Below are positions 6,145-62,583 of a stretch of DNA of 64,000 nucleotides, piece by piece; positions within the stretch are counted from its first letter, which is position 1, and every line of letters starts with the position of its first letter. Source of the stretch: a virus; IMG/VR virus record IMGVR_UViG_3300033475_001387, one strand, 5' to 3'. The notes beneath the pieces were generated by a model, which saw only the letters and a program-made list of their open reading frames with translations, was not told the origin of the DNA and did not search any database. The position numbers and the translations under genes are program-made.

Positions 6145-6609
6145 ATGATGCGGCCGTTCGACCCCCATTCGTCGTCCGGCACCTGGACCCCCGCCGCGTT
6201 CGGCATCGCCACGGTGCCCGTGTTCGAGGCCGCGCCAGTTGGCAACGGCCGAAGCATTGTGACCGCGTCTTTCCTCTACCGCTTCTACGACGCAGCGCAG
6301 GAGCTCCTGTATGTCGGAGTAACCACCGACCCGCGCAGCCGGTGGAACAGCCACCGGCACTCGGGCTGGTGGCAGCTGGCGCGCTTCGTCTCCCTCGCGC
6401 CCGTGCCGCCGGCCGAGCGCCTCGAGCGAGAGCGGGTAGCAATCGACGTCGAAGAGCCGAAGTTCAACTGGCTGCGTCCTAAGCGGCCGATCAGCATCCG
6501 TGTACGCCTGGCCGAGGGCCCGGCTGCCGTGGTCGCCGACCTCAAGCGCCGTCTGCCGACCGACGACTTCCATGCGCTGGCGGACGCATTCCGAGGAGCG
6601 GCGCAATGA
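6145..6609 (+). CDS. GIY-YIG nuclease family protein
   Basis: LYRFYD...LLYVGVT...R...H...ERVAIDVEEPKFN; start uncertain (6145 or 6259). Confidence 0.8.
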   Translation: MMRPFDPHSSSGTWTPAAFGIATVPVFEAAPVGNGRSIVTASFLYRFYDAAQELLYVGVTTDPRSRWNSHRHSGWWQLARFVSLAPVPPAERLERERVAIDVEEPKFNWLRPKRPISIRVRLAEGPAAVVADLKRRLPTDDFHALADAFRGAAQ

Positions 6610-7697
6610 CCACGCAAACGATCGCGGCTGCCGACGTAGCGGTCCCCAGTCAGGGCGAGATCGAGCGTGAGCACGTTGACACAATCACGATGCCGGCTGC
6701 GCCGATCTGGGAGCACGCTGGCGCGGCCAGCATCGGCAAGCCGTACTACAGGGACGAGCAGGTCACTCTGCTGCTCGGCAAATCCCTCGATGTGCTGCGC
6801 ACGTTGCCCGAAGCCTCCGTCGACTGCTGTGTGACCTCGCCGCCGTACTTCGGGCTTCGCGACTACGGCATCGAGGGCCAGTACGGGCTCGAGGACACCC
6901 CTGCGGAATACGTCGAGATCATGCGCGCCGTGTTTGCCGAGGTGCGAAGGATCCTGACCGTGGACGGCACGCTCTGGCTCAACATCGCAGACACCTACAA
7001 CAATCGCACCCGTGGCGCCTGGCGAGGCTCCTCCGACGGAGTAACCGGGCGTGCCGAGTCGCCTCGTTGGCAGCGCGTCACCGACGTCCCTGAGAAGTCG
7101 CTGATCGGGATCCCCTGGCGCGTTGCCTTCGCGCTCGTGGACGACGGATGGATCCTGCGCAACGAGGTCGTGTGGCACAAGACGAACCCGATGCCCGAGT
7201 CTGTCCGGGACCGGCTCGCCACCCGGCACGAGAAGGTTTTTCTGTTCACTCGCAGCGCCCGGTACGCCTTTGACCTCGACGCCATCCGCGAGATGCCCAG
7301 CCGTCCGGGCCGCGGCCGCACGTGGCCCGAGCGCCGCTCCGCCGGCGCACCCGGCCGGCACGGTCTCGCCGGCGTGGCCGGCCGCGATGGAGACTTCGTC
7401 GCCAGCGACGCCGGCCGAAATCCGGGCGACGTGTGGGTGTTCCCGACTCAGCCGTATCCCGAGGCGCACTTCGCGGTCTTCCCGGCCGAGTTGCCGATCC
7501 GATGCATCAAGGCCGGATGTAAGCCCGGCGGGGTCGTGCTCGACCCGTTCAGCGGGTCCGGGACGACCGGTGAAGTCGCGCGCAGGCTCGGCCGTAAGTA
7601 CGTCGGCATCGATCTCAACCCCGCGTACCACGACCTCGCGGTGAAGCGGTATGCGCAGGGAGTCCTCGCCCTCGAGCTTGAGGAGCCCGGCACCTGA
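6606..7697 (+). CDS. Site-specific DNA amino-methyltransferase (beta class, probably N4-C)
   Basis: TSPPY motif IV precedes VLDPFSGSGTT motif I. Confidence 0.92.
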   Translation: MTTQTIAAADVAVPSQGEIEREHVDTITMPAAPIWEHAGAASIGKPYYRDEQVTLLLGKSLDVLRTLPEASVDCCVTSPPYFGLRDYGIEGQYGLEDTPAEYVEIMRAVFAEVRRILTVDGTLWLNIADTYNNRTRGAWRGSSDGVTGRAESPRWQRVTDVPEKSLIGIPWRVAFALVDDGWILRNEVVWHKTNPMPESVRDRLATRHEKVFLFTRSARYAFDLDAIREMPSRPGRGRTWPERRSAGAPGRHGLAGVAGRDGDFVASDAGRNPGDVWVFPTQPYPEAHFAVFPAELPIRCIKAGCKPGGVVLDPFSGSGTTGEVARRLGRKYVGIDLNPAYHDLAVKRYAQGVLALELEEPGT

Positions 7698-7779
7698 TGT
7701 GCCCTCGAGATACCCGCCCCGGCGGCAGCGCCGGCTCAAGACCCCTGATCCGCCACACCAGCAGGAAAGAAGCGCCCTC

Positions 7780-8877
7780 ATGGCACGTACGTTCGGCAGG
7801 GTCTTCGGGACTATGTGGACCGACGATGACGAGTTTCTCGCCCTCGGCCCGCAGGCCAAGTACGTCTACACCTTCCTTGTCGGCCAGCCCGATCTCGGCC
7901 ATTCCGGGATCATCACGCTGCGCATCCCCCCGTGGTCCCGCCGCCTCGGCATCAGCCCCGCCCAGGTCGAAGCGGCGCTCGAGGAGTTGCACGCGCAGCG
8001 GTTCGTGGTCATGGACCCGGACGAGATGCTGCTGCTCGTTCGTGCCCTGATTCGTCGCGACTTCGTCTACCGGCAGCCGAACGTGTTCAAGTCGGCTGCG
8101 GACCAGATCTACGCAACGCCGTCTCGGCCGGTGCGCCGGGCACTGCTGGCGGAGCTTGAGCGGCTCGACGCGGCGGACATGAAGGGCGACACCGCGCAGG
8201 TTTGCAGTGAGCTGATCGCTTGGTTGCGGAAGTCTTCCGAGAACCCTTCACCTGACCCTTCCGGCAAGGGTTCCGGTAACCCTTCCGGCGAGCGCAACAG
8301 GCTAGACGCGCATTTTGAGCGCGAGGACACAGACGGCGCTGGCGAGGAGGGTTCAGCGAACCCTTCGGATAACCCTTCCGTGAACCCTCCCTCGCGCGCG
8401 CACGTGCGCGCGCTTTCCCCTACCCCTTCCCCTACCCCAACCCCTCTTGCCGCTGGCGCCCTCTTCGAAGTCGCCGACGCCGCACCCGCCAACGGCAGCG
8501 CGGGCAAGCCGCGCAAGGCCAAGGCGGCCAAGCCGCAGGATCCGGAGGTCGCGGCACGCAACAAGCTCGCGGTGGATCTGGTGAAGGAGTGGTACGAGGC
8601 GCAGTCGCCGAAACCGGCGGGCAAGTACGTCGGTTACCACCAGATCGCGGTGCGGCTGCTCGAGGCTGGCCACGAGCCGGACGTGATCGCGCAGGCGTTC
8701 AAGCGGTGCGGGATCTCGCTGACTCTCGCGTCGGTGCAGTTCCAGTTGCAGCGGATCGCGGAGACGGGCGGCAACAGCGTGGTCGCGCCGCTTCACCGTG
8801 GCCGCAACCCGTACATGGAGACCGAGGATCGCACGTACGGGTCGCTGGCCTCCGCGTTCGAGACGTCGGGGGCGTGA
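7780..8877 (+). CDS. Phage replication initiator / replisome organizer
   Basis: MARTFGRVFGTMWTDDDEFLAL...YTFLVGQPDL N-terminus typical of actinophage initiators; directly upstream of loader and DnaB; internal iterons. Confidence 0.75.
   Translation: MARTFGRVFGTMWTDDDEFLALGPQAKYVYTFLVGQPDLGHSGIITLRIPPWSRRLGISPAQVEAALEELHAQRFVVMDPDEMLLLVRALIRRDFVYRQPNVFKSAADQIYATPSRPVRRALLAELERLDAADMKGDTAQVCSELIAWLRKSSENPSPDPSGKGSGNPSGERNRLDAHFEREDTDGAGEEGSANPSDNPSVNPPSRAHVRALSPTPSPTPTPLAAGALFEVADAAPANGSAGKPRKAKAAKPQDPEVAARNKLAVDLVKEWYEAQSPKPAGKYVGYHQIAVRLLEAGHEPDVIAQAFKRCGISLTLASVQFQLQRIAETGGNSVVAPLHRGRNPYMETEDRTYGSLASAFETSGA
8242..8390. repeat. Iteron-like array (A/G)ACCCT(T/C)C, two groups of four at 12-bp period
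   Basis: Units at 8242, 8254, 8266 (inverted), 8278 and 8347 (inverted), 8359, 8371, 8383. Confidence 0.8.
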
Positions 8878-55239: not shown

Positions 55240-56211
55240 ATGCCTGCAGAGAAGGATAGCCGCACCGCGCCGCCGCCGAAACGCCGCGCGGCCCGACACG
55301 AGCCCACCCCACCCGTGCGCACCCCCAAGTCAGTGCGCATCGTCGCAGCCATCGGCATCCCGATCTCCCTCGCAGCCTCCGCCGCCGTCTCGTTCCAGGG
55401 CCTGTCCGGCCTGGGTGCGCTCATCGGCATCGCGCACCCGTGGCTGCTGCCGATCTCGATCGACGTCTACGCGATCACCGCCACCCTCATCGCGATGTTC
55501 CTGCCCGAGGGGCACCGGGCCCGGACCGCCGCCGAGTGGAACGCCCGGCTGGGCCTGGCCATGTCCATGGGCGGCAACGCCGCGGAGCGCGCGATCCACC
55601 TCGGCTCGTACACCGCCTCCGACGGCATCCTCACCTTCATCGGTGCGTGGCCGTCACTGATCGTCGAGCGACTGCTGCACCTGCAGGGCCGGCTCGCCGA
55701 CAGCGTGAAGACCACCGACACCGTCACCGACACCGAGGCGCCCGCGCCGACCGTCACCCGGCCGCGCAAGACCGACACTCCCGCGCGCGTCACCGTCACC
55801 GACACTCCCGCTCTGCCGCCGTCACCGACACCCGTCACCGACACTCTGGCCGACACTGCGCCCGTCACCGACACCGCGCCGTCGCCCGACACCGTCACCG
55901 CCCGCCCGACACTCGCGCCCGTCACCGTCGTCCGCGCGGCCGTCACCGACACCGACACCGACAGCGAACACGCCGAGCGCAGCCTCCCGTGGTGGGCCGA
56001 GAAGGCCGCACCCCTCTACCGGCAGTGGATGCGCGACCACAACGGCACCACCCCCGCCGCCCCCATGCTCGCCGATCTTCTGCGCAAGGCAGGCCACGAC
56101 GTCCCGGCCGGTGAGGTCCAGCGCCGCAAGATTCGGCGCGAGACCGAGACGTACATCAATGCGCACCCTGAGCCCGAGCCGGAGCCCGAGCAGGTCGGAG
56201 CCACGTCATGA
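55240..56211 (+). CDS. DUF2637/Spd-like membrane protein
   Basis: AAAVSFQGL..L...PWLLPISID...AMSMGGNA; TM N-terminus, Thr/Pro linker, C-terminal helical domain; coupled to FtsK-type gene. Confidence 0.75.
   Translation: MPAEKDSRTAPPPKRRAARHEPTPPVRTPKSVRIVAAIGIPISLAASAAVSFQGLSGLGALIGIAHPWLLPISIDVYAITATLIAMFLPEGHRARTAAEWNARLGLAMSMGGNAAERAIHLGSYTASDGILTFIGAWPSLIVERLLHLQGRLADSVKTTDTVTDTEAPAPTVTRPRKTDTPARVTVTDTPALPPSPTPVTDTLADTAPVTDTAPSPDTVTARPTLAPVTVVRAAVTDTDTDSEHAERSLPWWAEKAAPLYRQWMRDHNGTTPAAPMLADLLRKAGHDVPAGEVQRRKIRRETETYINAHPEPEPEPEQVGATS
55714..55964 (+). repeat. Co-oriented CCGACAC repeat array (candidate clt)
   Basis: 12 copies of CCGACAC, six within GTCACCGACAC, in more than one reading frame. 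Confidence 0.7.
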
Positions 56212-58517
56212 GCCTCATCAACCGCCACGCTTCAAGGGCCGCGGAGGCCGAGAACCTCGACGCAATCGGGGATCTCGACGCGGCCGGGGCCGAGCTCGTC
56301 GTGCGTGGCGTAGCGGAGCGCCGCATCGACCCGTACCGCACGACCAGCGGCAACACGATCATTCCGCGCCAGGGATACGCTCCAGGGCCCGCCATGGTGG
56401 CCCACGCCTACTCGCCGTTCTCCGGCGAGCTCCCGGCCCACGTGGCGGATCAGATGACCCCCGGCCGGGCCGACCGGACCGCGTGGGCGTTCTTCCAGTG
56501 GCTCCAGGACCGGCACCTGCTGCCCTCCGCCGCGGTCCTCGCCGGCCTCGTGTGCGGCTGGGGCACCGCCCTGACCGAACCCGACCACGTGCCCCTGGGC
56601 GCGGTCACCACGGCCTTCGGTCTGGTCGGCGCCCTCGGCTACGGCGGGCTGCACGTCATCCGGTCGATCAACTCCGACAGTGAGCCGATGCACCGCTCGC
56701 AGCACGCTGTCGGTCTGCTCGGGCTCGTCGCCACCGCGTTCGGTGTCGTCTGCATCACCGGACCGTCGTTCTACGGTGTCGGTGTCACCCTGCTCGAACT
56801 CGGTGTCGCCTACTGGGCGTACTTCGAGCACCGACACTCCAGGCTGTCGGATCAGCGGGAGTTCACTGTCGCCTACCACGCCGCCGTCACTCAGCAGATC
56901 GTGGCAGTGTCGGGCGACAGTGGCGCCGCGATGCAGCCGCTGCCGCTCGACGGCCAGGTCCTCTCCCACGAGGAGACGATGGTCCGCAACGCGTTCGACG
57001 GCATCGGGATCGGCCTGTCCGACATCTACGGCTTCTCGCGGATCAACGAGTCGTCGTTCGCCGTCACCGTCGTGCTGGCGCCGGCGAAGGGCATCAGCCC
57101 CGACGCGATCATCCGGCGCCGCGAGGAGATCAAGAGCGCGCTGCAGGCGAACCAGGTCCTGATCACGAAGACGCGCCGCGGCCACGAGGTGCGGATCACC
57201 GCGCGCTACGGGGAGATCGACGAGCTCGCCGAGACGATAGAGGCACCGGGCATCACCGTCCGCTCGATCAAGGAGCCGATCCCGCTCGGGCCGGCCGCTA
57301 CCGGTGAGATGTCGCTGCTGCACCTGCTCGGCAACCACACCGTCATCGGCGGCACGACGAACAACGGAAAGTCCGGTCTGGTCAACAACATCGTCACGCA
57401 GGTCGTGCCGATGAAAGACGCGCGCCTGGTTCTCCTGGACTGCAAGCCCGGCCAATTGGAGCTCGGGATTTACGAGGACGTCGCGTACGCGTCGGCGGAT
57501 TCATTCGAGCGCGCAGCGTTGATTCTGAAGGCTCTGGTCGCGGTGATGAATATCCGCGGCGCGAAGCTCAAGAAGCTGCGCCTGGAGTCCGGCAAGCCCG
57601 CGCGACAGTGGGACACCGAGGACGGGCCTGCCCTCGTCGTGGTGATCGACGAGCTCGCGGAGCTGTTCCGCGACCTCAAGCAGACCGAACTCAAGAAGAT
57701 CAAGAATGATGTGCTGCGCGACGCGATCGAGCACATGAACGCGAACTTCGTGCGTCTGTGCCAGGTCGCCCGCGCCTACGCCATCTCCCTGGTCATTGCG
57801 ACACAGAAGCCGGACGCGCTCGCGGCCGGCGGTGTGAAGTCCGGTGTCGACCAGGCGCAGAACCGGCTGTGCGTCGCGACCACGAGCTCGCGCCTGACGA
57901 ACATCGTGCTGCGTGAGGGCGCACACGGCGAGGGCTTCAAGGCGACCGAGCTCGACGTGGCCGGCAAATTCCTGATGATCACACTGAAGGAGGCGCTGAA
58001 GGTCGAGCGCAAGTCCTTCTGGTGGACCGACGAGCGCATCGCCGAGGTCGTCGAGCAGAACGGCGAGGACCTCGCCCCACTGGCGGACGATGAGGATGAT
58101 GCGTTCAAGGCGATCCTCGCCGGCCGCAAGCCCGACTTCGAGATCCCCTCCCCGTTCGACGACCCCGACGGCACGGAGGACGAGTGGGACGAGGAGGAGT
58201 TCGACGACACGCCCGCCGCCGACCCGCGCCACGGACTGCGGCTCGTGCCGGAGTACCCGGACGGCAGCGTGATCGAGACCAAATACCTGGCGTGCTGGGA
58301 GATGCTCGCCACCTTCGGCGACCGCGGCGCGACCGTCGCAGACCTCTCCGTCGCCGCCAAGCGCGCCGGGCACGAGAACAGCTCGCTCGCGTGGGTGCGC
58401 AACCTGTGCGCGGAGTGGCGCGCCGCCGGTTACGTCGTGGTCGAGCAGCAGGGCCGGGACTTCCGGTACTGGCGCGACGACGCCGCCGTGCGCCAGCAGT
58501 TGCGGATGGAGGCGTAG
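56208..58517 (+). CDS. FtsK/SpoIIIE-family conjugative DNA translocase (TraB/TraSA-like)
   Basis: N-terminal TM helices, Walker A GGTTNNGKS, LLDCKPG, Walker B VVIDELAE, ATQKP, C-terminal winged helix. Confidence 0.9.
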   Translation: MSLINRHASRAAEAENLDAIGDLDAAGAELVVRGVAERRIDPYRTTSGNTIIPRQGYAPGPAMVAHAYSPFSGELPAHVADQMTPGRADRTAWAFFQWLQDRHLLPSAAVLAGLVCGWGTALTEPDHVPLGAVTTAFGLVGALGYGGLHVIRSINSDSEPMHRSQHAVGLLGLVATAFGVVCITGPSFYGVGVTLLELGVAYWAYFEHRHSRLSDQREFTVAYHAAVTQQIVAVSGDSGAAMQPLPLDGQVLSHEETMVRNAFDGIGIGLSDIYGFSRINESSFAVTVVLAPAKGISPDAIIRRREEIKSALQANQVLITKTRRGHEVRITARYGEIDELAETIEAPGITVRSIKEPIPLGPAATGEMSLLHLLGNHTVIGGTTNNGKSGLVNNIVTQVVPMKDARLVLLDCKPGQLELGIYEDVAYASADSFERAALILKALVAVMNIRGAKLKKLRLESGKPARQWDTEDGPALVVVIDELAELFRDLKQTELKKIKNDVLRDAIEHMNANFVRLCQVARAYAISLVIATQKPDALAAGGVKSGVDQAQNRLCVATTSSRLTNIVLREGAHGEGFKATELDVAGKFLMITLKEALKVERKSFWWTDERIAEVVEQNGEDLAPLADDEDDAFKAILAGRKPDFEIPSPFDDPDGTEDEWDEEEFDDTPAADPRHGLRLVPEYPDGSVIETKYLACWEMLATFGDRGATVADLSVAAKRAGHENSSLAWVRNLCAEWRAAGYVVVEQQGRDFRYWRDDAAVRQQLRMEA

Positions 58518-58520
58518 CCG

Positions 58521-59984
58521 ATGGCCGGCAAGCCCCGGCGCCGCAAGCCGCCGGCAACGGCCGTGGACCGGGCGGTGCGCTCAGCGAAGCGCACCGCCCG
58601 GTCCATGACCCCGGACCGAGTGGTCGCCCGGTTCCTGAGCGGCGGGCGACACCAGACGATCGGCGCGATCGCAAGAGCGCCGTTCAAGGAGCACACGGTC
58701 GCCACCCCGAAGTCGGGCAAGCGCCGCTACCAGCAGATCGTGGCGAAGGAGCGCAAGGCCCAGGCGAAGAAGGCCGCTGAGACGAAGCGGGCGCAGGCCG
58801 CGGCACAGAGAGCTGTCCGCGCCCAGACGCGGGGCCAGAAGCCGCGCGCGCCGAGGCCGCAGCGGCAGCCGATCGCCGTGAACCCGCGCACCGGCAAGGC
58901 GATCACCTGGGGCCAGGCGCAGGCCGGTGTGCGGGCCGCGCAACGCGAGGTCGACCGGATCGAGCGGGAACTCGCCGGCGCCCCGGCGCCGCGCCCGCGC
59001 GCACCTCGGCCGAAGCCGGAGCAGGCGCCCGCCTCGAAGTCGCCGCTGCAGGCCGCCATCGCCGAGGTCAAGGCCAAGCAGAAGCCGCCGGACCGGACAC
59101 CGGCCAAGCCGAAGCCCCGGAAGAAAGCCGCCGCCAAGCCGCGCCGCCCGCTGGCGAAGAAGAACAGCGGCATCGAGACCGTCGCCGACCTGATCCCGGG
59201 CCGCGCGATCCTCGCCCCCACCACGCCGCAGCGCGCCACCCCCGGCGCGCCGACGGCGCCGTATGCCATCCCGCTGAGCCCGCGCTCTCGTGCCGCCCGC
59301 AAGGGCGGCAAGGGCGTGTACGGCGCCGTCCTGCGACGCACCTGCGAATGCGGCGGCACTGGCCGCATCCCCACCTACGACCCGAAGACCGCGGCACTCA
59401 CCGGCTCCGCCTCCTGCCCGGTGCACGGACGCCGCGCCCGCGGCACCCGCCGCCACTTCACCCGCACCGCCGCCCGCGACGCCGGCCTGCCCGGGCTCGC
59501 CGGGTACCTCGAGAAGAAGCGCCGCAACGGATCGAAGCGGCTCGACAAGCAGCAGGAACGCGTACAGCACCGCGCCGCCACCGACCTACGGCGCATGGGC
59601 CCGACCGTGCCGTGCCCGCAGACCGCGCACTGCGACAACGGAATCTGGGACCGCAAGGACAAGGACCGCGAGCGCGAGGCGTTCATCGCCGCGCACGTCG
59701 CCGCCGCCCGCGCCGAGGACCAGCCCGTCCCGTCGAACCGGAGACTGCGGAAGCTGGCCGCACAGGCACTGCCGTATGAGCACTGCGACACCTGCGGCGG
59801 CCTCGGCCGCGTGCCGACCTCGACCGAGGTCACCCAGGACGGTCAGATCCCGGTGTGGGAGTGGCGTACCGGCGCGGGCCTGCGCTACGGACACCAGCCC
59901 ACGGCGCGCGAGCGCTCGACCGGCCGACGGCAGACCGAACACGCCGAGCGCGTCGAGCGCCGCCGCAAACTCCCCCGCCTGTAG
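58521..59984 (+). CDS. Basic protein with DnaJ-type zinc-finger motifs
   Basis: CECGGTGR and CDTCGGLGR; Arg/Lys/Ala-rich. Confidence 0.65.
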   Translation: MAGKPRRRKPPATAVDRAVRSAKRTARSMTPDRVVARFLSGGRHQTIGAIARAPFKEHTVATPKSGKRRYQQIVAKERKAQAKKAAETKRAQAAAQRAVRAQTRGQKPRAPRPQRQPIAVNPRTGKAITWGQAQAGVRAAQREVDRIERELAGAPAPRPRAPRPKPEQAPASKSPLQAAIAEVKAKQKPPDRTPAKPKPRKKAAAKPRRPLAKKNSGIETVADLIPGRAILAPTTPQRATPGAPTAPYAIPLSPRSRAARKGGKGVYGAVLRRTCECGGTGRIPTYDPKTAALTGSASCPVHGRRARGTRRHFTRTAARDAGLPGLAGYLEKKRRNGSKRLDKQQERVQHRAATDLRRMGPTVPCPQTAHCDNGIWDRKDKDREREAFIAAHVAAARAEDQPVPSNRRLRKLAAQALPYEHCDTCGGLGRVPTSTEVTQDGQIPVWEWRTGAGLRYGHQPTARERSTGRRQTEHAERVERRRKLPRL

Positions 59985-60146: not shown

Positions 60147-60608
60147 ATGGACCACTCCAGTCCGGGATCCAAGCCCCGGGTTTTGATCACCACGTACGGC
60201 AGCCTCCACGGCGCGCCGCCGAGGTCCGCGCCGTTCGCCGTGCTCGCACTCGACCTGCGCCACTCGCTGCGCAACCCGTTCGACGACCCGGCGATGCGCG
60301 AGTTGACCGGCCTCGACCCCGTCGTGCGCGACCACGTCCTGAACACCGACGGTGCCGACGCGATCCTCGCCGACACCACCGGGCGCCTGATGGCGCTGCT
60401 CGACTGGTCCGACCGGAAGAACGCGCAGACCGACCGCGACGACCAGGTCACCTTGCACGTGTTCTGCAAGGGCGGCCGGCACCGTTCGGTCGCCGTAGCC
60501 GAGGAGATCGCCGCGACGCTCCGCTCCGCCGAAATCAGCGTCGGCGTCGAGCACCGCGACGTCACCAAGCCCGTGATCCAGCCGACTTCCGCGACCCAGG
60601 AGGCGTGA
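60147..60608 (+). CDS. RapZ C-terminal-domain-like protein
   Basis: ITTYG..HG...DLR..LRNPF.DP.MRELTG.D..V...V...C.GGRHRSVA. Confidence 0.8.
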   Translation: MDHSSPGSKPRVLITTYGSLHGAPPRSAPFAVLALDLRHSLRNPFDDPAMRELTGLDPVVRDHVLNTDGADAILADTTGRLMALLDWSDRKNAQTDRDDQVTLHVFCKGGRHRSVAVAEEIAATLRSAEISVGVEHRDVTKPVIQPTSATQEA

Positions 60609-62219: not shown

Positions 62220-62293
62220 AGCAGGGTAGCGCAGCCGGTTAGCGCGTCGGTTTCATACGTCGAAGGTCGCGGGTTCGAGTCCCGTCCCTGCCC
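62220..62293 (+). tRNA. tRNA-Met(CAT) with A1:C72 mismatch
   Basis: D arm GCGC, loop TT-CAT-AC, T arm GCGGG-TTCGAGT-CCCGT; no encoded CCA. Confidence 0.8.
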
Positions 62294-62295
62294 CC

Positions 62296-62368
62296 GGGGT
62301 TGACGCTGAGGTAGCGGGCCTGTCCTGCAAACAGGCTGCAGTCGGTTCGATTCCGACCTACTCCACCA
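62296..62368 (+). tRNA. Atypical tRNA, Ala(TGC)-like or Cys(GCA)-like
   Basis: G3:U70, A73, CCA; stem CCTGT/ACAGG centres TGC with C33; short D loop. Confidence 0.65.
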
Positions 62369-62395
62369 CTCGGACGACGGAACCGCCCGGGCGCT

Positions 62396-62476
62396 GGCGC
62401 GGCTGCTGGGACAGAACGGGGTCTGTAAAGCCCTGGCCTCCGGGCTCGCTAGGTTCGATTCCTAGACGCGCCACCA
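62396..62476 (+). tRNA. tRNA-Tyr(GTA), long variable arm
   Basis: CT-GTA-AA loop, T arm CTAGG/CCTAG, ACCA end; D arm degenerate. Confidence 0.75.
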
Positions 62477-62500
62477 CGTAGATTCCGCTTCTCCAGCCGC

Positions 62501-62572
62501 GCCGTGTTAGCTCAGTGGGTAGAGCGTCGCTCTCGTAAAGCGGAGGCCAGGGTTCGAACCCCTGACGCGGCT
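62501..62572 (+). tRNA. tRNA-Thr(CGT)
   Basis: Canonical cloverleaf; CT-CGT-AA loop. Confidence 0.88.
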
Positions 62573-62583
62573 CGCCCCGTCGA

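What the first reader, a model, noticed from the sequence alone, without database searches (positions are those of the whole stretch)
55714..55964. Candidate clt: 12 co-oriented CCGACAC repeats hidden in the Spd-like coding sequence
Seen: CCGACAC at about 55715, 55727, 55772, 55799, 55825, 55838, 55850, 55868, 55886, 55906, 55946 and 55952, all on one strand, about 250 bp before the traB-like start. Most encode TDT, but some are in another frame (CCG TCA CCG ACA = PSPT; CCG ACA CTC = PTL), which points to DNA-level selection. Established: TraB winged-helix domains bind arrays of 8-bp direct repeats (TRS) in clt. Inference: this is the transfer origin, with an 8-mer like CCGACAC(C/T).
Basis: partly seen in the sequence, partly recalled or inferred. 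Interest (0 to 1): 0.75.

Follow-up and report, generated by a model that had tools for sequence, protein, structure and literature searches.

The report
Binding-site array written into linker codons
Twelve same-strand copies of the DNA word CCGACAC sit in the floppy-linker codons of a membrane-protein gene just before a TraB-type DNA pump; five diverged relatives keep the word at nucleotide level, so it is very probably a protein docking site for DNA transfer, though probably not read by TraB as first proposed.

Summary
All 12 CCGACAC copies are at the stated positions, on one strand, and end 250 bp before the traB-like start. The rest of the 64-kb window has only chance numbers, and no other direct-repeat cluster exceeds 5 copies.

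The array fills the predicted disordered linker (aa 158-245) of a DUF2637-like membrane protein. That gene overlaps the start of an FtsK/SpoIIIE gene that has a predicted C-terminal winged helix.

Five diverged lineages (window, L002, L004, L140, L141) carry the word C-GACAC-Y in this linker. Of 46 in-frame Asp-Thr sites, 45 are C-GAC-ACY, against 16 of 43 outside linkers. Rare ACT is enriched, ACG is nearly absent, and four copies lie in another frame. Selection therefore acts on the DNA.

The TraB reading is weakened. L003 has an identical TraB recognition helix but no such array in 33 kb. L004 has a diverged helix but keeps the array. The word instead tracks the membrane protein's own basic C-terminal three-helix domain.

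My best reading (0.4) is a clt-like docking array read by that domain. TraB TRS/clt stands at 0.25.

This scan reported the same arrangement before on other DNA. I class it as a new variant of a known kind.

The parts
55715..55958 (+). Array of 12 exact CCGACAC words (consensus across relatives C-GACAC-Y). Spacings are 6-45 nt. Ten copies read xDT and two read in another frame.
55693..55965 (+). Extended array. Besides the 12 exact words it holds 10 CGTCACC and 2 CGACAGC one-mismatch variants, giving 24 related words in 273 bp.
   Evidence: Tandem Repeats Finder reports overlapping periods of 6-60
55240..56211 (+). Spd-like / weak DUF2637 membrane-protein gene (P0001, 323 aa). It has an N-terminal helical membrane domain, a disordered linker and a C-terminal three-helix domain. 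Its stop overlaps the traB start (ATGA).
55711..55974 (+). Codons of the predicted disordered linker (aa 158-245, pLDDT < 50). This segment is hypervariable among homologues. The array fills it almost exactly.
55984..56163 (+). C-terminal three-helix domain of P0001 (aa 249-308, pLDDT 93-96). The third helix, EVQRRKIRRETETYINA (56113-56163), is basic. This is the proposed reader of the array.
   Evidence: co-occurrence with the array. There is no Pfam match.
56208..58517 (+). TraB-like FtsK/SpoIIIE translocase gene (P0002, 769 aa).
58278..58475 (+). Predicted winged helix-turn-helix of the TraB-like protein (aa 691-756). The recognition helix alpha3, LAWVRNLCAEWRAA, spans 58386-58427. This is the rival reader.

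Best explanation
The array is a true cis-acting protein-docking site made of 7-8-bp direct repeats (C-GACAC-Y). In this window there are 12 exact copies and 12 one-off copies. It is written into the codons of the disordered linker of the Spd-like membrane protein, where the peptide sequence is almost free.

Proposed mechanism:
1. The protein's own basic C-terminal three-helix domain, tethered to the membrane by that same linker, binds the repeats as many copies.
2. This holds the element's double-stranded DNA at the membrane, beside the TraB-type pump encoded by the translationally coupled next gene.
3. [quoted passage not shown]

Shown: the array is real; selection acts on the DNA word; it sits in the linker; it co-occurs with the C-terminal domain type and not with the TraB helix type.

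Inferred: binding by that domain, the membrane tether, and a role in transfer or spread.
For: 1. Codon choice. Of 46 in-frame Asp-Thr sites in the linkers of five lineages, 45 are C-GAC-ACY, against 16 of 43 Asp-Thr sites elsewhere in these elements (Fisher 1.4e-10). The preceding codon ends in C in 46 of 46 sites, across nine different residues. Thr is ACC 34, ACT 11, ACG 1, against a background of ACG 35% and ACT 5%.
2. Synonymous recoding gives far fewer words than observed: window 12 against 5.6, L002 11 against 1.6, L004 8 against 1.5, each with P < 1e-4.
3. Four copies (two in the window, two in L004) are in another reading frame.
4. In L002, L140 and L141 the flanks and spacers are unrelated, so only the word is kept. 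In the adjacent conserved domain, third codon positions are only about 60% identical between most lineage pairs (up to 82% for the closest), i.e. largely diverged.
5. The array fills the predicted disordered linker, and the C-terminal domain is a confident three-helix bundle with a basic third helix.
6. The word travels with the EV[QR]RR[KV]IR-type C-terminal domain, joined to three different N-terminal domains: window, L002/P0028, L004, L140 and L141. L003 has a different third helix (SSSRARAIR) and a different word (GGCGCCC x7), although its TraB helix is identical.
7. Other lineages carry other words in the same place: CGCCAAC x9 in L009, CGCCGACG x8-9 in L014/L015 (7-mer CGCCGAC x10-11), CGGCAGCG x7 in L010.
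8. Precedent: the sps site bound by SpdA2 lies inside the spdA2 coding region of pIJ101 (PMC4170104).
Against: - No binding was measured, and the C-terminal domain matches no known DNA-binding family. Its fold could not be searched on its own, because the search of the full-length model was dominated by the membrane helices.
- The array and the C-terminal domain are adjacent (under 300 bp apart). Their co-inheritance could therefore be plain linkage, while the TraB winged helix is 2.5 kb away.
- Only about two informative recombinants (L003, L004) separate the two readers.
- L003's contig was examined for 33 of 56 kb only.
- Within the window much of the array arose by duplication of a CCGTCACCGACAC unit, so its copies are not independent.
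Confidence: 0.4

Rival explanations
1. The array is the clt of the element: an array of TraB recognition sequences (TRS) bound by the winged helix of the TraB-like translocase, which then pumps the double-stranded DNA into the recipient.
For: - The array lies 250 bp upstream of, and in the same operon as, an FtsK/SpoIIIE gene that has a predicted C-terminal winged helix.
- It is the only strong direct-repeat cluster in 64 kb.
- Known clt loci are arrays of 7-9-bp direct repeats read by TraB helix alpha3 (PMC4447253, PMC3583192).
- The TraA-bound repeat of pWTY27 is TGACACC, which shares GACACC with this word (PMC3583192).
- L009 has a replaced TraB C-terminus and a different word.
Against: - L003's TraB has the same alpha3 and wing as the window's, but there is no CGACAC cluster in the linker or in 33 kb of its contig.
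- L004's alpha3 differs at 5 of 16 positions, yet the array is kept.
- Alpha3 is nearly constant across lineages whose linker words differ.
- In L009 the upstream protein's C-terminal domain is replaced as well, so that case does not discriminate.
- The match to the curated plasmid TraB model is far below its cutoff (35 against 800 bits).
Confidence: 0.25
2. There is no DNA-level function. The linker is a slippage-prone, low-complexity Asp-Thr-rich spacer, and the repeated word is a by-product of hexamer or 13-mer duplication and concerted evolution.
For: - Tandem Repeats Finder finds overlapping periods of 6, 12, 13, 18, 26, 43 and 60 in the window's array.
- GACACCGACACC tandems occur in every lineage.
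- Every relative's linker has some over-represented 7-mer, including an Ala-Pro-coding GGCGCCC in L003.
- Triplets of CGACACC are common in unrelated viral contigs.
Against: - Duplication does not explain why only the 7-mer is kept, with unrelated flanks, in L002, L140 and L141.
- It does not explain why the base before GAC is C in 50 of 50 copies after nine different residues.
- It does not explain why rare ACT is tolerated while common ACG is excluded.
- The lineages are largely diverged at synonymous sites in the neighbouring domain.
Confidence: 0.2
3. The array is a functional nucleic-acid site of another kind. Candidates are a centromere-like partition site, an operator array for a regulator of the transfer operon, an origin iteron set, or a signal read on the mRNA.
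For: - Direct-repeat arrays of this size also serve as centromeres and iterons.
- CGACACY arrays sit inside Rep-like genes in unrelated viral contigs L106 and L075.
- All copies are on the transcribed strand, so an RNA-level reading is not excluded.
Against: - The element has separate Rep-like genes with their own repeat clusters.
- The array always travels with the transfer module, not with replication genes.
- No partition gene was looked for.
Confidence: 0.15

Closest known systems
clt loci with TraB/TraA recognition repeats of Streptomyces conjugative plasmids (pSVH1 8-bp TRS; pJV1 9 x CCGCACA[C/G][C/G]; pWTY27 4 x TGACACC)
   Same: It is a cluster of co-oriented 7-9-bp direct repeats next to a single FtsK-like transfer gene with a C-terminal winged helix. 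The word shares GACACC with the TraA-bound repeat of pWTY27 (PMC3583192, PMC4447253).
   Different: - It lies inside the coding sequence of the upstream membrane-protein gene, not after or at the 3' end of tra.
- It has many more copies (12 exact, 24 related).
- The word does not co-vary with the TraB recognition helix among relatives.
- The TraB-like protein is only distantly related to curated plasmid TraB.
sps site of SpdA2, pIJ101 (PMC4170104)
   Same: It is a binding site for a Spd-type DNA-binding protein hidden inside that protein's own coding region, next to traB.
   Different: sps is a single short palindrome, and it affects segregational stability rather than transfer. Here there is an array of direct repeats in a linker, and the protein is a larger membrane protein. 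Homology to SpdA2 was not tested.
Phage lambda ori iterons inside the O gene linker (textbook knowledge, not checked here)
   Same: An array of binding sites for a protein is written into the interdomain linker codons of that protein's own gene.
   Different: Lambda O is a replication initiator. P0001 has no Rep similarity, and the element has separate Rep-like genes.
SpdB2 / DUF2637 (PF10935) spread proteins of Streptomyces plasmids
   Same: It is an integral membrane protein encoded beside traB. SpdB2 binds dsDNA and interacts with TraB (PMC4447253, PMC4170104).
   Different: The window's protein scores below the Pfam cutoff (16.9 against 22.8 bits). SpdB2 binding was reported as non-specific, and no site array in its gene is described in the papers read here.

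Membership tests
clt / TRS of TraB-type conjugation | Cluster of several co-oriented 7-9-bp direct repeats on the element close to the tra gene | tested here: met
   There are 12 CCGACAC copies in 244 bp, ending 250 bp before traB. It is the strongest cluster in 64 kb.
clt / TRS of TraB-type conjugation | [quoted passage not shown] | tested here: met
   PF01580 matches at 4.7e-14. The AlphaFold model shows three helices plus a beta-hairpin at pLDDT about 88-92. Foldseek returns winged-helix regulators with probability 1.0 but E about 5e-3.
clt / TRS of TraB-type conjugation | The repeat word changes together with the TraB recognition helix alpha3 | tested here: not met
   L003 has an identical alpha3 but no CGACAC array in 33 kb. 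L004 has 5 of 16 changes in alpha3 and keeps the same array.
clt / TRS of TraB-type conjugation | TraB binds the repeats, and the locus is required in cis for transfer | not testable with these tools
   This needs EMSA or footprinting and a mobilisation assay.
Curated plasmid TraB (NCBIfam NF041214) | Score above the equivalog cutoff | tested here: not met
   The score is 35.1 bits against a cutoff of 800. The protein is TraB-like in architecture only.
Self-site inside the gene of a Spd-type DNA-binding protein (SpdA2/sps type) | The site lies within the coding region of the protein that binds it | tested here: inconclusive
   The location inside the gene is shown. Binding by the gene's own product is inferred only from co-occurrence with its C-terminal domain type.
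Self-site inside the gene of a Spd-type DNA-binding protein (SpdA2/sps type) | Palindromic site | tested here: not met
   All copies are direct repeats on one strand, and there are no reverse-complement copies in the gene.
DUF2637 / SpdB2-like membrane proteins (PF10935) | Pfam match above the gathering score | tested here: not met
   The score is 16.9 bits against 22.8 for P0001. Some relatives carry weak precomputed PF10935 hits.
Neutral coding minisatellite / low-complexity linker | Codon choice at the repeated dipeptide is no different from elsewhere, and whole units including spacers are repeated | tested here: not met
   45 of 46 sites are C-GAC-ACY, against 16 of 43 controls. Flanks are unrelated in L002, L140 and L141. 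The window itself does show unit duplication.
Origin iterons in an initiator gene (lambda O type) | The host gene encodes a replication initiator | tested here: not met
   P0001 has no Rep-family match. Rep-like and DnaB genes lie elsewhere in the window.

The most novel reading that the evidence does not exclude
In a whole family of phage- or plasmid-borne single-pump DNA-transfer modules, the sequence specificity of transfer is not set by TraB. It is set by a membrane-anchored adaptor protein that reads an array of its own lineage-specific 7-8-bp words, written into the codons of its own disordered linker. This would be a self-encoded docking array that hands the element's DNA to a sequence-neutral TraB pump. 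Each lineage would then re-specify transfer simply by co-evolving one helix and one linker.
Probability: 0.3. Interest if true: 0.7.

Novelty: new variant of a known kind. Interest (0 to 1): 0.55.

Why it matters
If the array is a docking site, it gives a concrete 270-bp candidate for the cis-acting transfer or spread locus of an uncharacterised family of TraB-type modules. Several members of that family sit on contigs catalogued as viral.

It would also show that the specificity partner may be the Spd-like membrane protein rather than TraB. That would revise the simple 'one protein plus clt' picture of actinomycete conjugation.

More generally, it is a clear example of a regulatory DNA code overlaid on disordered-linker codons. 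Such sites can be detected purely from synonymous-site statistics, which matters for annotation and for any recoding of such genes.

Within this scan the same arrangement has already been reported on other DNA, so this window adds a well-replicated case with five lineages rather than a first sighting.

Tried and rejected
- No whole genome is held for this window, so no host-chromosome k-mer count was possible.
- The genome-contig scan with TraB gave only an unrelated hit, L001.
- A plasmid DNA search found nothing.
- pWTY27 (GU226194) is not in the plasmid collection. The Vogelmann 2011 and Servin-Gonzalez 1996 papers are not held. The TraA/TraB helices of characterised plasmids therefore could not be compared.
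- One literature search was too broad to be useful, and a search for DUF2637 gave nothing relevant.
- I searched for a repeat word shared by all relatives that could be a conserved TRS. Only GC-rich low-complexity 8-mers came up.
- The pSVH1-type word GACCCGG is not clustered in the window.
- An IMG/VR scan for three CGACACC words found more than 119 unrelated loci, none with TraB, so it was uninformative for this question.
- Pfam at E <= 10 on the C-terminal domains gave only noise.
- Complex prediction with TraB and the P0001 C-terminal domain returned no verdict. It counts neither for nor against binding.
- L003's record could not be searched whole. I walked it with two look-ups to 33 of 56 kb.

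Full report
**Observation.** The other 15 copies in the window (both strands) match the shuffle expectation. A Poisson estimate for 12 copies in 244 nt on one strand is 6e-28, or 3e-25 after correction for all windows and strands. With the array masked, the best same-strand 7-mer cluster anywhere in the 64 kb has 5 copies. Ten copies read xDT. The same 273 bp also holds 10 CGTCACC and 2 CGACAGC, which are one-mismatch variants. Tandem Repeats Finder reports overlapping periods of 6 to 60, so part of the window's array arose by duplication of a unit such as CCGTCACCGACAC.

**Setting.**
- The array lies in ORF 55240-56211 (P0001, 323 aa). Its stop overlaps the ATG of ORF 56208-58517 (P0002, 769 aa).
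- P0002 matches FtsK_SpoIIIE (PF01580, 4.7e-14). It reaches only 35 bits against a cutoff of 800 on the curated plasmid TraB model.
- An AlphaFold model of its last 170 residues gives three helices and a beta-hairpin at pLDDT about 90. Foldseek matches winged-helix DNA-binding proteins with probability 1.0 but E about 5e-3. The recognition helix is LAWVRNLCAEWRAA.
- P0001 has a weak, sub-threshold DUF2637 match.
- Its model shows a helical membrane domain, a disordered stretch at aa 158-245 (pLDDT below 50), and a confident three-helix C-terminal domain whose third helix, EVQRRKIRRETETYINA, is basic.
- The array (55715-55958) fills the linker codons (55711-55974) almost exactly. Among 16 homologues the two domains align and the linker is hypervariable.
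- The window carries phage- or plasmid-type replication genes. Three relatives' contigs are catalogued as viral in IMG/VR.

**Relatives.** TraB homologues at 80%, 72%, 65%, 56% and 48% identity were found and their loci fetched.
- In almost every locus the strongest local same-strand k-mer cluster falls in the linker of the gene upstream of traB.
- Five lineages carry the same word: the window has 12 copies, L002 has 11, L004 has 8, L140 has 7 and L141 has 12.
- Other lineages carry other words: GGCGCCC x7 in L003, CGCCAAC x9 in L009, CGCCGACG x8-9 in L014/L015 (7-mer CGCCGAC x10-11), and CGGCAGCG x7 in L010.

**Is the word selected as DNA?**
- Resampling synonymous codons while keeping each linker peptide gives far fewer words than observed: window 12 against 5.6, L002 11 against 1.6, L004 8 against 1.5, all with P < 1e-4.
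- Of 46 in-frame Asp-Thr sites in the five linkers, 45 are C-GAC-ACY.
- The codon before Asp ends in C in 46 of 46 sites, although it encodes nine different residues (Thr, Pro, Ser, Ala, Asn, Ile, Val, Leu, Gly).
- Thr is ACC 34 times, ACT 11 times and ACG once. Pooled usage in these elements is ACG 35% and ACT 5%.
- Outside the linkers only 16 of 43 Asp-Thr sites have this form. The Fisher test gives 1.4e-10, and C at position -1 gives 2.4e-8.
- A position matrix of all 50 copies shows information only at C-GACAC-Y. Flanks are near random outside the window's own duplicated unit.
- In the adjacent conserved C-terminal domain, third positions of conserved four-fold residues are about 60% identical in most lineage pairs (up to 82% for window-L004), so synonymous sites between the lineages are largely diverged.
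- Together with four out-of-frame copies, this argues for selection on the DNA (or RNA) word, not on an Asp-Thr peptide. It also argues against mere recent duplication in L002, L140 and L141.
- The copies are not fully independent (duplication, shared ancestry), so the nominal product of probabilities (1e-27) overstates the case. The linker-versus-control contrast does not depend on independence in that way.

**Who reads it?** Known clt loci are arrays of 7-9-bp direct repeats read by helix alpha3 of the TraB winged helix (PMC4447253, PMC3583192). The TraA-bound repeat of pWTY27, TGACACC, resembles the word here.
- L003's alpha3 and wing are the same as the window's, but its linker has only two CGACAC. 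No cluster exists in 33 of the 56 kb of its contig.
- L004's helix differs at five positions (STSWVRDLCGDWRAAG), yet the array is kept.
- The helix is nearly constant across lineages that have different words.
- The word instead follows the C-terminal domain of the upstream protein. All lineages with the EV[QR]RR[KV]IR third helix have the C-GACAC-Y array or its Asp-Thr peptide trace, on three different N-terminal membrane domains.
- L003 shares its N-terminal domain with L140 up to the start of the linker. It then has a different third helix (SSSRARAIR) and a different word.
There is precedent in the sps site inside spdA2 of pIJ101 (PMC4170104) and, from textbook knowledge, in the lambda ori iterons inside the O gene linker.
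- The caveat is linkage. The array and that domain are adjacent, whereas the TraB helix is 2.5 kb away, and only two recombinants are informative.

**Mechanism proposed.** Many copies of the membrane-anchored protein dock through their C-terminal domains on the array in their own gene. This holds the element's DNA at the membrane beside the TraB pump made from the coupled downstream gene, so the locus would act like a clt with an adaptor. Binding, tethering and the role in transfer are all inferred.

**Odds.**

| Reading | Probability |
|---|---|
| Docking array read by the protein's own tail | 0.40 |
| TraB TRS/clt | 0.25 |
| No DNA function (slippage) | 0.20 |
| Other cis function or RNA-level signal | 0.15 |

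**Comparison and novelty.** The array works like a clt, but it fails the one comparative membership test for a TraB-read clt. It also differs from sps (direct repeats rather than a palindrome) and from lambda ori (the protein is not an initiator). I found no description of such linker-coded arrays in the papers available here. This scan's earlier follow-ups on other genomes describe the same arrangement and reached a similar reading (e1-3826237, e1-3299135, e1-5355987, e1-3427509). Those are unchecked AI notes and not independent evidence, but this is therefore not a first sighting within the scan. I class it as a new variant of a known kind and set interest at 0.55.

Noticed in passing
window 62220-62573: Four tRNA genes lie back to back (Met-CAT, Ala-TGC, Tyr-GTA, Thr-CGT). 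The Met and Ala genes abut with no spacer. This is typical of phage or mobile-element tRNA clusters.
   Followed up: no
L019 5484-5650 (same contig as L003): GGGAACAG x6 and its complement CTGTTCCC x4 lie in the gap beside a DnaB gene. This looks like an iteron-type origin and resembles the pWTY27 iterons GTGGGAAC/TTCCCAC (PMC3583192).
   Followed up: no
window 55240-55710 compared with L002 4949-5540 and L003/L004/L140/L141: The Spd-like protein is modular. Three different N-terminal membrane domains are joined to the same linker array plus C-terminal domain, with a recombination joint at the start of the linker.
   Followed up: partly
L009 10001-12214: This TraB homologue is 71% identical over its first 69% but has a replaced C-terminal winged helix. 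Its upstream gene has a different C-terminal domain and a CGCCAAC x9 linker array.
   Followed up: partly
L106 about 6600-6800; L075 7720-8020 (IMG/VR contigs): CGACACY arrays lie inside Rep-like genes (GDTT and xDT peptide repeats), next to an SSB gene in L106. They are probably origin iterons written into coding sequence.
   Followed up: no
window 8243-8372: ACCCTTC x5 is the second-best direct-repeat cluster of the window. It lies inside the replication-initiator-like gene 7651-8877.
   Followed up: no
whole window; L013/L016, L012/L017, L010/L018: The transfer module sits in a phage-like replicon with DnaB, Rep, methyltransferases, Ku and Ro60-like genes. Three relatives' contigs are IMG/VR viral contigs of 31-116 kb. 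The nearest named TraB-like proteins are in Streptomyces phage Gilgamesh (27.8% identity) and in Streptomyces 'plasmids' of about 130 kb.
   Followed up: partly
window 56170-56211: The EPEPEPE...VGATS tail (GAGCCC x3.7) at the end of P0001 is conserved in relatives and overlaps the ribosome-binding region and start of traB. Its conservation may reflect translational coupling rather than a protein function.
   Followed up: no
window 60147-60605: A small gene two genes downstream of traB (after ORF 58521-59984) matches the RapZ C-terminal domain (PF22740, 9e-24). The same gene accompanies traB in L004.
   Followed up: no
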